Source: Eledone cirrhosa
Taxonomy: Eukaryota
Assembly (NCBI GenBank): GCA_964016885.1
Contig: OZ024740.1
Coordinates: 218,178,001 to 218,242,000 of the forward strand
Direction: 5' to 3'
Length of the DNA: 64,000 nucleotides
In this document: positions 20,497 through 61,283 of the stretch, piece by piece
Position numbering within the stretch: the stretch's first letter is position 1
Layout: every line of letters starts with the position of its first letter
The notes under the pieces: generated by a model
Database searches by the model: none
What the model was told of the DNA's origin: nothing
Seen by the model: only the letters and a program-made list of their open reading frames with translations
Program-made: the position numbers and the translations under genes

Positions 20497-20685
20497 GATG
20501 AGATTCTACACGACTAGAACTGTTTCATTCTTTAGAAATCATCAGGAATCTCTGATGATTTCTAAAGAATGAAACAGTTCTAGTCCTGTAGAATCTCATC
20601 TATATTAAAACTGTTATACTCTGCTATGTATTGAGTACCTTACTTACTGTGGTTACCTCCGATTCAAGCCGGAATAACTTACCTA
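20497..20685. ncRNA. back-to-back hammerhead ribozyme palindrome (family P), (TA)n-flanked
   Basis: CTGATGA-TTTC.TAAA.GAAT-GAAACAG..CTGT-A-GAATCTC on + and its mirror on -. Confidence 0.75.
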
Positions 20686-21043
20686 TATATATATATATAT
20701 ATATATATATATATATATATATATATATATATATATTATATATATATATATAACTTCGTACTTATAAGCACACACACACACACATACGCACACACACACA
20801 CATACGCACACACACACACATACACACGCACACAAAGATAGCTCTATATACAAAACGGTTCTTTTTCCATTTCAGGTAAAAAATAAATCATACACAAAAC
20901 GCCAGTATCAAGTTTACCAACAGATGTCAACATGAACGAACCTGTTATTTTTCTCTAAAAACATTTCTCCCGATTCCATCCGGCCCATCTATCCCTTCAA
21001 TCTATCCCATCTATCCCTTCAATCTATCTAATTTCCCCTTTTT

Positions 21044-21079
21044 TCTTCTCATGAAGGACTAGCGTCCGAAACGTTAAGA
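21044..21079 (+). ncRNA. mutated minimal hammerhead
   Basis: TCTT-CTCATGA-A-GGAC.TAGC.GTCC-GAAACGT-T-AAGA; core G5 changed to C. Confidence 0.5.
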
Positions 21080-21699
21080 CTCTCTTCCTGCTATTTAAAG
21101 TGCTAACCTAATATATCCCTTCCATATACTGTACCGATTGTGTTGTTATTTCTATTTACTTTTTACATACATACATGCACACACACACACACGCGCGCGC
21201 ACGCACACACAAACACACACACACACAAACACACACACACACACACACACACACACACACATATATGAGTTAGTAAAATCAAAGTTGCGGCGCTCGGCCA
21301 ACATCCACGAAAAAAAAAACAATATTCAGAAGCTTTGCGCGAAACACTCAATAAGATAATATCAATAAATCGATAAGTTACATCTTAGAGTAATAAACAT
21401 ATGTTAAATGGCGTGACAAATTAAAAACTGTGGTTAAGGGGACAAAGCCAAAGAAGCCACCACAAGAACGAAAATACAATAGCTTTCCTTTCTTTATACA
21501 CTCGCACACACACATATATATAGATTTATACATGTGTGTATATGCTTGTATGTGTGTGCGTTTGTGTGTGTGTTTATGCAAAAGCCAAACAGAAATAGCG
21601 AGGAAAACAACACAGTACAATGTAGAATATATGTATATATAAAGACGCCCTTCGAATAACCATGAGTTTTGTACATAGAAAGTTCGCCTTCAAGGCACA

Positions 21700-56536: not shown

Positions 56537-59500
56537 TAGAAATTGGAATAAATGCTCTGAAATAGCGATATATATGTGAATATAGACATAGAATATTCGA
56601 AAATATTCTGTATGTTTATAATAAACATTTTGAAGACCTAATCGCTATAGAATAGAATACGTCACGTATTACAATTAGATTCTCGATAAAAGCAAGGGAA
56701 GTAATCTACGCGTTTCATTCTTATTAGAAATCTTCAGGACTACATATCCAGTGCTTTTATCGAGAATGACACAGCTAGAGACTTATAGAATACTTAGCTG
56801 TGTACAGGAACTGGTTTGAAAGAGCGGTTGCCGGTCCGGCAGAAATTAGAAATTGGAATAAATGCTCTGAAATAGCGATATATATGTGAATATAGACATA
56901 GAATATTCGAAAATATTCTGTATGTTTATAATAAACATTTTGAAGACCTAATCGCTATAGAATAGAATACGTCACGTATTACAATTAGATTCTCGATAAA
57001 AGCAAGGGAAGTAATCTACGCGTTTCATTCTTATTAGAAATCTTCAGGACTACATATCCAGTGCTTTTATCGAGAATGACACAGCTAGAGACTTATAGAA
57101 TACTTAGCTGTGTACAGGAACTGGTTTGAAAGAGCGGTTGCCGGTCCGGCAGAAATTAGAAATTGGAATAAATGCTCTGAAATAGCGATATATATGTGAA
57201 TATAGACATAGAATATTCGAAAATATTCTGTATGTTTATAATAAACATTTTGAAGACCTAATCGCTATAGAATAGAATACGTCACGTATTACAATTAGAT
57301 TCTCGATAAAAGCAAGGGAAGTAATCTACGCGTTTCATTCTTATTAGAAATCTTCAGGACTACATATCCAGTGATTTTAGCGAGAATGACACAGCTAGAG
57401 ACTTATATAATACTTAGCTGTGTACAGGAACTGGTTTGAAAGAGCGGTTGCCGGTCCGGCAGAAATTAGAAATTGGAATAAATGCTCTGAAATAGCGATA
57501 TATATGTGAATATAGACATAGAATATTCGAAAATATTCTGTATGTTTATAATAAACATTTTGAAGACCTAATCGCTATAGAATAGAATACGTCACGTATT
57601 ACAATTAGATTCTCGATAAAAGCAAGGGAAGTAATCTACGCGTTTCATTCTTATTAGAAATCTTCAGGACTACATATCCAGTGCTTTTATCGAGAATGAC
57701 ACAGCTAGAGACTTATAGAATACTTAGCTGTGTACAGGAACTGGTTTGAAAGAGCGGTTGCCGGTCCGGCAGAAATTAGAAATTGGAATAAATGCTCTGA
57801 AATAGCGATATATATGTGAATATAGACATAGAATATTCGAAAATATTCTGTATGTTTATAATAAACATTTTGAAGACCTAATCGCTATAGAATAGAATAC
57901 GTCACGTATTACAATTAGATTCTCGATAAAAGCAAGGGAAGTAATCTACGCGTTTCATTCTTATTAGAAATCTTCAGGACTACATATCCAGTGCTTTTAT
58001 CGAGAATGACACAGCTAGAGACTTATAGAATACTTAGCTGTGTACAGGAACTGGTTTGAAAGAGCGGTTGCCGGTCCGGCAGAAATTAGAAATTGGAATA
58101 AATGCTCTGAAATAGCGATATATATGTGAATATAGACATAGAATATTCGAAAATATTCTGTATGTTTATAATAAACATTTTGAAGACCTAATCGCTATAG
58201 AATAGAATACGTCACGTATTACAATTAGATTCTCGATAAAAGCAAGGGAAGTAATCTACGCGTTTCATTCTTATTAGAAATCTTCAGGACTACATATTCA
58301 GTGCTTTTATCGAGAATGACACAGCTAGAGACTTATAGAATACTTAGCTGTGTACAGGAACTGGTTTGAAAGAGCGGTTGCCGGTCCGGCAGAAATTAGA
58401 AATTGGAATAAATGCTCTGAAATAGCGATATATATGTGAATATAGACATAGAATATTCGAAAATATTCTGTATGTTTATAATAAACATTTTGAAGACCTA
58501 ATCGCTATAGAATAGAATACGTCACGTATTACAATTAGATTCTCGATAAAAGCAAGGGAAGTAATCTACGCGTTTCATTCTTATTAGAAATCTTCAGGAC
58601 TACATATCCAGTGCTTTTATCGAGAATGACACAGCTAGAGACTTATAGAATACTTAGCTGTGTACAGGAACTGGTTTGAAAGAGCGGTTGCCGGTCCGGC
58701 AGAAATTAGAAATTGGAATAAATGCTCTGAAATAGCGATATATATGTGAATATAGACATAGAATATTCGAAAATATTCTGTATGTTTATAATAAACATTT
58801 TGAAGACCTAATCGCTATAGAATAGAATACGTCACGTATTACAATTAGATTCTCGATAAAAGCAAGGGAAGTAATCTACGCGTTTCATTCTTATTAGAAA
58901 TCTTCAGGACTACATATCCAGTGCTTTTATCGAGAATGACACAGCTAGAGACTTATAGAATACTTAGCTGTGTACAGGAACTGGTTTGAAAGAGCGGTTG
59001 CCGGTCCGGCAGAAATTAGAAATTGGAATAAATGCTCTGAAATAGCGATATATATGTGAATATAGACATAGAATATTCGAAAATATTCTGTATGTTTATA
59101 ATAAACATTTTGAAGACCTAATCGCTATAGAATAGAATACGTCACGTATTACAATTAGATTCTCGATAAAAGCAAGGGAAGTAATCTACGCGTTTCATTC
59201 TTATTAGAAATCTTCAGGACTACATATCCAGTGCTTTTATCGAGAATGACACAGCTAGAGACTTATAGAATACTTAGCTGTGTACAGGAACTGGTTTGAA
59301 AGAGCGGTTGCCGGTCCGGCAGAAATTAGAAATTGGAATAAATGCTCTGAAATAGCGATATATATGTGAATATAGACATAGAATATTCGAAAATATTCTG
59401 TATGTTTATAATAAACATTTTGAAGACCTAATCGCTATAGAATAGAATACGTCACGTATTACAATTAGATTCTCGATAAAAGCAAGGGAAGTAATCTACG

Positions 59501-59593
59501 CGTTTCATTCTTATTAGAAATCTTCAGGACTACATATCCAGGAACTGGTTTGAAAGAGCGGTTGCCGGTCCGGCAGAAATTAGAAATTGGAAT
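56537..59593 (-). repeat. retrozyme-like tandem array, left arm: 10 x 310-bp units, hammerhead on - strand
   Basis: Period of exactly 310 (56541, 56851 ... 59331). Hammerhead at 56701-56743 + n*310. The tenth unit lacks 56 bp. Confidence 0.93.
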
Positions 59594-61283
59594 GAAACGC
59601 GTAGATTACTTCCCTTGCTTTTATCGAGAATCTAATTGTAATACGTGACGTATTCTATTCTATAGCGATTAGGTCTTCAAAATGTTTATTATAAACATAC
59701 AGAATATTTTCGAATATTCTATGTCTATATTCACATATATATCGCTATTTCAGAGCATTTATTCCAATTTCTAATTTCTGCCGGACCGGCAACCGCTCTT
59801 TCAAACCAGTTCCTGTACACAGCTAAGTATTCTATAAGTCTCTAGCTGTGTCATTCTCGATAAAAGCACTGGATATGTAGTCCTGAAGATTTCTAATAAG
59901 AATGAAACGCGTAGATTACTTCCCTTGCTTTTATCGAGAATCTAATTGTAATACGTGACGTATTCTATTCTATAGCGATTAGGTCTTCAAAATGTTTATT
60001 ATAAACATACAGAATATTTTCGAATATTCTATGTCTATATTCACATATATATCGCTATTTCAGAGCATTTATTCCAATTTCTAATTTCTGCCGGACCGGC
60101 AACCGCTCTTTCAAACCAGTTCCTGTACACAGCTAAGTATTCTATAAGTCTCTAGCTGTGTCATTCTCGATAAAAGCACTGGATATGTAGTCCTGAAGAT
60201 TTCTAATAAGAATGAAACGCGTAGATTACTTCCCTTGCTTTTATCGAGAATCTAATTGTAATACGTGACGTATTCTATTCTATAGCGATTAGGTCTTCAA
60301 AATGTTTATTATAAACATACAGAATATTTTCGAATATTCTATGTCTATATTCACATATATATCGCTATTTCAGAGCATTTATTCCAATTTCTAATTTCTG
60401 CCGGACCGGCAACCGCTCTTTCAAACCAGTTCCTGTACACAGCTAAGTATTCTATAAGTCTCTAGCTGTGTCATTCTCGATAAAAGCACTGGATATGTAG
60501 TCCTGAAGATTTCTAATAAGAATGAAACGCGTAGATTACTTCCCTTGCTTTTATCGAGAATCTAATTGTAATACGTGACGTATTCTATTCTATAGCGATT
60601 AGGTCTTCAAAATGTTTATTATAAACATACAGAATATTTTCGAATATTCTATGTCTATATTCACATATATATCGCTATTTCAGAGCATTTATTCCAATTT
60701 CTAATTTCTGCCGGACCGGCAACCGCTCTTTCAAACCAGTTCCTGTACACAGCTAAGTATTATATAAGTCTCTAGCTGTGTCATTCTCGATAAAAGCACT
60801 GGATATGTAGTCCTGAAGATTTCTAATAAGAATGAAACGCGTAGATTACTTCCCTTGCTTTTATCGAGAATCTAATTGTAATACGTGACGTATTCTATTC
60901 TATAGCGATTAGGTCTTCAAAATGTTTATTATAAACATACAGAATATTTTCGAATATTCTATGTCTATATTCACATATATATCGCTATTTCAGAGCATTT
61001 ATTCCAATTTCTAATTTCTGCCGGACCGGCAACCGCTCTTTCAAACCAGTTCCTGTACACAGCTAAGTATTCTATAAGTCTCTAGCTGTGTCATTCTCGA
61101 TAAAAGCACTGGATATGTAGTCCTGAAGATTTCTAATAAGAATGAAACGCGTAGATTACTTCCCTTGCTTTTATCGAGAATCTAATTGTAATACGTGACG
61201 TATTCTATTCTATAGCGATTAGGTCTTCAAAATGTTTATTATAAACATACAGAATATTTTCGAATATTCTATGTCTATATTCA
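59590..61283 (+). repeat. retrozyme-like tandem array, right arm: about 5.5 inverted units, hammerhead on + strand
   Basis: GTAGTC-CTGAAGA-TTTC.TAATAA.GAAT-GAA-ACGCGT-A-GATTAC at 59877-59919 + n*310 (5 complete). Confidence 0.93.

What the first reader, a model, noticed from the sequence alone, without database searches (positions are those of the whole stretch)
20497..61283. Recurrent architecture: many unrelated hammerhead elements inserted in (TA)n as divergent inverted repeats
Seen: the same geometry (minus-strand copy on the left, plus-strand copy on the right, 3' ends outward, usually next to (TA)n) recurs at 20497, 25569, 27291, 31935, 47521, 48077, 49225, 49598, 52960-54920, 54973 and 56537. 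The families share little beyond the hammerhead fold, and arms range from ~55 bp to 3 kb. One case is the Penelope-like RT/GIY-YIG remnant itself. Established: Penelope-like elements carry hammerheads in pseudo-LTRs, often have an inverted upstream pseudo-LTR, and some clades prefer (AT)n; twin priming explains L1 inversions. Inference: (TA)n is self-complementary, so both cut strands present the same primer and could each prime on ribozyme-processed RNA. That would give outward-facing pairs joined by microhomology, and a diverse set of non-coding ribozyme parasites would share one enzyme.
Basis: partly seen in the sequence, partly recalled or inferred. Interest (0 to 1): 0.85.

Follow-up and report, generated by a model that had tools for sequence, protein, structure and literature searches.

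The report
Penelope head-to-head pairs from double priming
These are ends of known Penelope-like jumping genes and one ribozyme-bearing repeat, inserted head-to-head in TA repeats, and almost every pair joins one copy ending at a fixed near site to one ending at a fixed far site, which likely means the enzyme copies one RNA twice, once from each cut DNA strand.

Summary
The geometry is real and genome-wide, but the architecture is the known Penelope-like element (PLE) signature: head-to-head pLTR, a tail on one arm, (TA)n targets (PMC8557442, PMC3846280). The scan noted it before in another genome (e1-7882047). Seven of the 11 sites are pLTR ends of autonomous Hydra- or Neptune-type PLEs, not parasites; one is a 310-nt retrozyme.

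Not found in the papers I searched:
- Each family has two fixed 3' ends, A and B. 63 of 64 inspected pairs use one of each; one subfamily counts 3440 of 3591 genome-wide.
- The two arms share private variants.
- In 11 of 36 pairs neither arm contains the other, so fold-back cannot explain them.
- Arms overlap, unlike L1 twin priming.
- Short pairs stop about 30 nt after a TATA box in three families.

Best reading (inferred): two reverse transcriptases prime from both nicked strands at sites A and B of one uncleaved RNA and often run off its 5' end.

The parts
20333..20466 (.).
20497..20683 (.). F2 (Hydra-type pLTR) pair: left A arm (-) with hammerhead at 20545, right B arm (+) with tail
25570..25760 (.). 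F2 pair, intact hammerheads at 25629 (-) and 25646 (+); A left, B right; joint at the putative transcription start
27290..27521 (.). old F3 (Neptune-type pLTR) pair: left A arm (-), right arm (+) truncated, no B end left
31931..32323 (.). F31 pair, arms 74% alike, degraded hammerhead at 32061 (+), A left, B right; parent ORF not found
47522..47865 (.). F47 (Hydra-type pLTR) pair with A ends on both sides: the one exception among 64 pairs
47912..48726 (.). F48 pair, U3-A8 hammerheads at 48235 (-) and 48570 (+); left arm carries a ~167-nt tail to the (TA)n at 47911; parent ORF not found
49229..49537 (.). F49 pair, hammerhead at 49324 (+), A left, B right; parent ORF not found
49600..49819 (.). 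F4 pair, A left; right tail cut short and fused to an F3 tail, likely by a later deletion
52906..54916 (.). F3 insertion: inverted pLTR with tail (B, left), then 5'-truncated RT-thumb/GIY-YIG remnant (about 53400-54560, +; stops and frameshifts; 89% identical to a copy with an open ORF) and pLTR ending at A
54976..55256 (.). F4 pair, B left, A right plus 20 foreign nt; (TAAA)n/(TTGT)n at the joint
55690..55835 (+). F4 copy with the complete U3-A8 hammerhead core at 55703, ending at site A
56537..61292 (.). F310 non-LTR retrozyme: 9.7 monomers (-) ending at B and 5.5 monomers (+) ending at A; 15 intact type I hammerheads; 4-nt overlap at the joint

Best explanation
The pairs are single insertions of Penelope-like retroelements in (TA)n, each with one arm ending at a fixed site A and the other at a fixed site B, likely because the enzyme nicks both target strands and two reverse transcriptases start at A and B on the same uncleaved RNA. 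Both would copy towards the RNA's 5' end without leaving the template exclusive to one of them (no RNase H domain in PLEs; recalled). They would stop at the transcript's start or earlier, and host end-joining would fuse the two cDNA ends. Priming near the 5' end of the mRNA would give the 120-200-bp palindromes. Priming in the 3' pLTR would give inverted pLTR + truncated ORF. A circular or multimeric retrozyme RNA would give two multi-copy arms. Shown: polarity, A/B pairing, shared variants, overlap and non-nesting of arms, stop positions, parent ORFs. Inferred: two nicks, two active sites, one RNA molecule, transcription start, joining pathway.
For: 3' ends are bimodal in each well-sampled family. 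63 of 64 pairs in seven families are A+B, 32 expected, p=3e-18; left/right order 30:33. No pair is duplicated on both flanks. Genome-wide, one F4 subfamily: 3440 A/B, 23 A/A, 128 read-through on both sides; all 4 inspected of the last class are really A/B. Among the first 30 B-anchored F2 copies, 22 have an adjacent inverted arm, all A (2 are segmental duplicates). Arms agree at a 50:50 variant in 24 of 24 F2 pairs. F310 arms differ at 3 of 109 variable cells within loci against 228 of 1104 between loci. In 11 of 36 F2 pairs (10 of 34 independent) the A arm reaches over 8 nt further 5' than the B arm; in 3 the arms do not overlap. Stops lie at 0..+3 of an Inr-like site 30 nt after a TATA box: F2 38 of 70, F4 18 of 42, F50 11 of 17; an extra G precedes +1 in 10 of 14 F2 stops. 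A and B sites begin with 1-6 nt of TA-like sequence. In vitro, the anole PLE cleaves and extends both strands, starts at two internal sites flanking the tail, needs no ribozyme cleavage and is predicted to be a dimer (PMC11167929).
Against: No RNA or biochemical data for these elements; the transcription start is read from motifs only. The extra G is not seen in F4 (2 of 5) or F50 (1 of 2), and helix-I snap-back could also give it in F2. Genuine A/A pairs exist (window 47522; 3 of 4 inspected). Shared variants also fit sibling RNAs from one locus or later homogenisation of inverted arms. Many ends have no partner found (68 A, 55 B; some cut by locus edges or below the hit length). Two divergent pairs join different families (L065, L159), which one RNA cannot give without a jump or a later deletion. 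F310 arm lengths may have changed after insertion. F3 and F47 lack a TATA box 30 nt before their stop clusters. No empty sites were compared.
Confidence: 0.62

Rival explanations
1. Both strands prime, but on two different RNA molecules held by an asymmetric complex (dual priming in the sense of PMC2837659), one read from A and one from B.
For: Explains overlap and non-nesting equally well, and the two cross-family pairs. Sibling RNAs from one active locus would share variants.
Against: The non-coding F310, which must be mobilised in trans from a mixed pool, still has matched arms (3 of 109 against 20.7%). A strict A/B rule needs an extra asymmetry.
Confidence: 0.2
2. One priming event followed by self-priming/fold-back, with the second end set by endonuclease cleavage of the element's own DNA (PMC3846280; 'EN-mediated resolution' in PMC8557442).
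For: Explains identical arms, joints at palindromes (3 of 11 F310 joints have both arms ending within 7 nt of one monomer position) and the one-sided tail.
Against: A fold-back copy must lie inside the first arm. This fails in 11 of 36 F2 pairs, and 3 have no overlap. In 3 of 11 F310 loci the A arm is the longer one.
Confidence: 0.12
3. L1-type twin priming: the second primer anneals upstream on the same RNA and the two cDNAs cover non-overlapping parts.
For: 3 of 36 F2 pairs have non-overlapping arms.
Against: 33 of 36 overlap. In F310 the B arm's 5' end lies within 30 nt of site A in only 2 of 11 loci. The second start is fixed, not chosen by microhomology.
Confidence: 0.03
4. DNA-level inversion at (TA)n cruciforms, or assembly artefact, inverts whatever lies next to the repeat.
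For: One SINE-like flank is inverted across (TA)n at window 48799-48994. 18 of 39 TA-adjacent inverted rows outside the window have no hammerhead call.
Against: Ends are fixed and family-specific. SINE control: 3 of 82 copies near (TA)n; close neighbours 17 same-strand against 3 opposite. Arms differ in end and by up to 26-31%. Contigs of public run X1 show loose TA ends at A (60982, 9 contigs) and B (61013, 1 contig) (may be the window's own sample).
Confidence: 0.03

Closest known systems
Canonical EN+ Penelope-like elements with inverted upstream pLTR and one-sided tail (Craig 2021 PMC8557442; Arkhipova 2013 PMC3846280; Schostak 2008 PMC2377424)
   Same: Head-to-head inverted 5'-truncated copy, tail at one end only, (TA)n targets for Neptune and Hydra, TATA/Inr in the pLTR, hammerhead in the pLTR.
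   Different: There the tail is 30-40 bp and 'optional' or 'often' one-sided. Here it is about 30-165 nt by family and one-sided in about 96-98% of pairs. Those papers propose self-priming or EN resolution; non-nested arms argue against that as the sole route.
Poseidon PAc in vitro mechanism (Frangieh 2024 PMC11167929)
   Same: Two internal RT start sites flanking the tail, both strands cut and extended, AT-rich target, ribozyme cleavage not needed.
   Different: That study saw no strand difference in start sites and did not link the two starts within one insertion. It reports no primer-template homology, whereas A/B sites here carry 1-6 TA-like nt.
Hydra-clade PLEs (PMC8557442 section 11)
   Same: F2 and F4 parent ORFs have RW(R) in place of RWK, DKT, CxCx5C, CxxC/CxH and no CCHH; (TA)n insertion.
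   Different: Described as few families; here F4 alone has 46,255 exact motif hits, mostly short 5'-end pairs.
Non-LTR retrozymes (Cervera 2020 PMC7229834; Li 2026 bioRxiv 10.64898/2026.07.22.740005)
   Same: F310: 310-nt tandem monomers, each with a type I hammerhead, no ORF.
   Different: Two-armed divergent arrays with fixed A/B ends in (TA)n. The word 'inverted' does not occur in PMC7229834 and occurs only in a reference title in Li 2026.
PLE minimal hammerheads (Cervera 2014 PMC4209133)
   Same: Extra nucleotide between 9 and 10.1, short palindromic helix III, U3-A8 core variant, dual motifs 100-700 bp apart on opposite strands.
   Different: No polarity, end or target analysis of those pairs in the passages read.

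Membership tests
EN+ Penelope-like element | single ORF with PLE-type RT and C-terminal GIY-YIG endonuclease | tested here: met
   F3 parent: RVT_1 E=5.5e-4 and GIY-YIG E=1e-3, both below Pfam cut-offs; open frames to 1257 aa. F2, F4, F47 parents by motifs and tblastn; Pfam-A scan gave no hit for the F2 parent.
EN+ Penelope-like element | pLTR in partial tandem, inverted upstream copy, one-sided tail | tested here: met
   L266 and L153 tandems; 63 of 64 one-sided tails
EN+ Penelope-like element | placement in the RT phylogeny | not tested
Hydra clade | RWK-type and DKT motifs, CxCx5C linker, CxxC/CxH, no CCHH | tested here: met
   F2 parent RWRAFF, SDKT, CNCLNKEAC; F4 parent RWRTFF, SDKT, CNCPDRSIC; criteria
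Neptune clade | C-terminal EN with CCHH and upstream CX2-5CxxC finger | tested here: met
   CIDKKCITC upstream of YIGET with Cys/His ligands; Nematis not excluded by a tree
Non-LTR retrozyme (F310) | tandem ~170-400-nt monomers, each with a type I hammerhead, non-coding | tested here: met
   fold z=-4.56
Non-LTR retrozyme (F310) | expressed, self-cleaving, circular RNA | not testable with these tools
   no RNA holder listed; needs an assay
Type I hammerhead ribozyme | core CUGANGA/GAAA/UH with helices I-III | tested here: met
   own scanner 71 hits against 0 reversed in 514 kb at score 9; Rfam gathering 0 hits; incomplete at 49598 and 54973
L1-type twin priming | non-overlapping inverted fragments, second site set by annealing | tested here: not met
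   33 of 36 overlap; fixed second site
TA-targeting MITE | symmetric terminal inverted repeats abutting TA on both sides | tested here: not met
   asymmetric tails and ORF parents; a symmetric cluster 11 kb downstream of the window does fit

The most novel reading that the evidence does not exclude
The PLE 'tail' and inverted pLTR are the footprint of an obligatory two-site reaction: two RT active sites sit at A and B on one RNA, each extending one strand of the cut (TA)n. Tens of thousands of short palindromes in this genome are then paired strong-stop-like cDNAs of the mRNA's first 60-130 nt, not a class of parasites. A circular retrozyme enters the same reaction and rolls in both directions.
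Probability: 0.55. Interest if true: 0.72.

Novelty: new member of a known kind. Interest (0 to 1): 0.55.

Why it matters
How PLEs make their inverted and tailed insertions is called unresolved in PMC8557442. The A/B rule, shared variants and non-nested arms exclude self-priming as the sole route and tie the two in vitro start sites to single insertions. This gives a sharp test in an existing in vitro system. It also gives junction-level evidence that an animal retrozyme is inserted by PLE machinery. For annotation, these short palindromes could be mistaken for MITEs or miRNA hairpins.

Tried and rejected
Rfam: the E-value scan's listed top 150 rows were almost all miRNA models on simple repeats, with no hammerhead among them; 91 lower rows were not shown. 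The gathering scan gave 0.

A DNA search of G000 with the F310 monomer found nothing; the tool skips common words, so patterns were used instead.

Sequencing runs: no RNA holder listed. 20 runs of 17 studies hold the F310 words. Of 4 laid, X23 gave 0 reads, X10 and X17 one contig each. Not used as evidence on expression or host range.

Complex prediction on two copies of the F4 parent RT part: no answer, score 0.00, alignment not used. Not evidence either way.

A stop hot spot at the ribozyme cleavage site was considered: only 4 of 72 F2 arms (one a duplicate) end within 3 nt of it, though one ORF-bearing copy (L153) begins there. A splice acceptor at the F2 stop was considered (an intron ends at helix I in D. 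virilis, PMC4209133) and rejected because the upstream bases vary between copies.

The 'convergent' call at window 49602 came from a neighbouring family in the reference set. Two weak convergent calls far from (TA)n outside the window were left unresolved.

No parent ORF was found for F310, F31, F48, F49 or F50 in the loci tested. Empty sites could not be compared (no relatives held).

Literature searches for the A/B rule or strong-stop reading found none stating it. Evgen'ev and Arkhipova 2005 and Arkhipova 2006 were not read.
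Full report
Setting. The window is G000:C1:218178001-218242000 in a 3.0-Gb, microsatellite-rich animal genome. Its common SINE resembles octopus SINEs; this is recalled and not tested. I fetched flanking and distant stretches and search loci; the main tally used 116 de-duplicated sequences, 1.09 Mb. 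Family names (F2, F3, F4, F31, F47, F48, F49, F50, F310) are mine.

Observation. Inverted arms are present at the listed sites (27291 only as a strand switch). A type I hammerhead scanner gave 24 hits in the window against 0 in reversed and shuffled controls. A relaxed version gave 38 against 0 in 450 kb outside the window. Rfam found none at gathering score. F4, F48 and F50 carry the U3-A8 core, already known from schistosome PLEs (PMC4209133, passages). At 49598 and 54973 only half the motif is present.

Polarity. Among the first 100 listed genome hits, neighbours within 10 kb were 23 divergent to 0 convergent for F2 and 10 to 1 for F3, and 24 to 6 for F4 (17 to 0 within 100 nt). The 4 convergent F4 cases inspected are separate insertions. 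Of 14 F310 clusters fetched, 10 are two-armed and all divergent; 4 are one-armed. In 450 kb outside the window, 39 TA-adjacent inverted rows split into 19 divergent, 0 convergent, 2 ambiguous and 18 without a hammerhead call, 5 of these rows being one MITE-like cluster. (TA)n lies within 200 nt 3' of 35 of 45 hammerheads against 10.4% by chance; only 3 of 82 SINE copies touch (TA)n.

Identity. F2 (20497, 25569; 9206 exact cores), F4 (49598, 54973; 46,255 motif hits) and F47 (47521) are pLTRs of Hydra-type PLEs: parent ORFs flank them, and the F2 and F4 ORFs show the motifs listed in PMC8557442 section 11. F3 (27291, 52960; 6128 cores) belongs to a Neptune-type PLE with open frames up to 1257 aa; the window remnant is 89% identical to one. 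F310 (2575 cores) is a non-LTR retrozyme. Parents of F31, F48, F49, F50 and F310 were not found. So most families bring their own enzyme.

The A/B rule. 3' ends next to (TA)n fall at two positions per family: F310 30 nt apart, F3 about 60, F2 68-80, F4 80. Of 64 same-family divergent pairs bounded by (TA)n, 63 have one A and one B end (32 expected, p=3e-18); the exception is window 47522. Some loci were chosen for holding opposite-strand hits, but none by end type. A direct genome count for one F4 subfamily gave 3440 A/B, 23 A/A and 128 with read-through on both sides. All 4 inspected of the last class were A/B with a shifted or jumped A end; 3 of 4 inspected A/A were genuine. Among the first 30 B-anchored F2 copies, 22 have an adjacent inverted arm, all A (two are segmental duplicates). 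Two divergent pairs join different families.

One template, two starts. Arms agree at a variant split 12:12 in 24 of 24 F2 pairs. F310 arms differ at 3 of 109 variable cells within loci against 228 of 1104 between loci; no permutation of 20,000 reached this. Arms overlap in 33 of 36 F2 pairs, against L1 twin priming as described in PMC2837659 (passages). In 11 of 36 the A arm reaches further 5' than the B arm, so neither is a fold-back copy of the other. This argues against self-priming (PMC3846280, passages) as the sole route.

Where the arms stop. 28 of 36 A arms and 23 of 36 B arms of F2 end 30-46 nt upstream of the cleavage site. This is an Inr-like site 30 nt after TATAAATA. F4 and F50 show the same spacing. 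Stops at 0..+3 number 38 of 70, 18 of 42 and 11 of 17; only 3, 5 and 1 stop in the 11 nt just upstream, and 46, 2 and 8 further copies read well past it. The anchors lie 13-15 nt downstream, so later stops are not seen. An extra G precedes +1 in 10 of 14 F2 cases but not clearly in F4 or F50. F3 and F47 have looser stop clusters without TATA. I infer run-off at the transcript's 5' end. Most arms cross the cleavage site, so the template was uncleaved or religated, as in vitro (PMC11167929, results and discussion read; its 3 held supplement files had none of my terms). Joints are mostly blunt or carry extra bases: overlap in 8 of 36 for F2 and 8 of 11 for F310.

Mechanism. Shown: polarity, target, fixed ends, pairing, variant sharing, overlap, non-nesting, stop positions, parent ORFs. 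Inferred: two nicks in the self-complementary (TA)n, each pairing 1-6 nt with the RNA at A or B; two RT sites on one RNA; run-off; end-joining. A fold of the RT part as a dimer gave no answer.

Novelty. The architecture is in print: inverted 5'-truncated copy, tail at one end, (TA)n bias (PMC8557442, passages and section 11); opposite-strand hammerhead pairs (PMC4209133); retrozymes as non-autonomous PLE derivatives (bioRxiv 10.64898/2026.07.22.740005, parts 1-3 of 5 read, supplements closed). An earlier scan note on another genome called it ordinary. I found no statement of the near-strict A/B pairing, the non-nesting test, the run-off reading or two-armed retrozyme arrays in searches. Subscription papers, including the 2005 and 2006 PLE reviews, were not read. 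Verdict: known elements, with new genomic evidence that makes an open mechanism testable.

Noticed in passing
window 56537-57200 against public runs: 20 runs of 17 studies and 18 coded organisms hold 67-100% of the F310 words. In X10 it is one 340-nt contig closing on itself, with 3 differences. Contamination, diet, relatives or horizontal spread were not told apart.
   Followed up: partly
window 48799-48994: A SINE-like 5' flank is duplicated and inverted across (TA)n without any hammerhead.
   Followed up: no
window 49820-52913: Tandem duplication of 1547 bp carrying an F3 tail fragment and an F50 pair.
   Followed up: partly
window 23879-24677, 26451, 36433, 55990-56500: Further hammerhead-like elements between (TA)n runs, not assigned to parents; 23896-24677 is a 244-bp direct repeat.
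   Followed up: no
L274:1380-1760: F4 partial tandem whose downstream unit starts exactly at the putative transcription start, as a run-off followed by a template jump would give.
   Followed up: no
L065:2609-4964 and L159:1939-3001: Divergent pairs made of two different families (F47/F310, F2/F3), both A+B.
   Followed up: partly
L002:1069-1582 (G000:C1, 11 kb after the window): Cluster of short symmetric TA-flanked inverted-repeat elements, MITE-like.
   Followed up: no
L001:9871 into L002, and L002:4243-4412, among others: Tailed inverted pairs in (TA)n with no detectable hammerhead; possibly Naiad-type or ribozyme-less PLE ends.
   Followed up: no
L158:2946-4820: The Neptune-type RT has a long insertion between motifs A and B, where PMC8557442 says canonical PLEs lack an insertion-in-fingers domain.
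   Followed up: no
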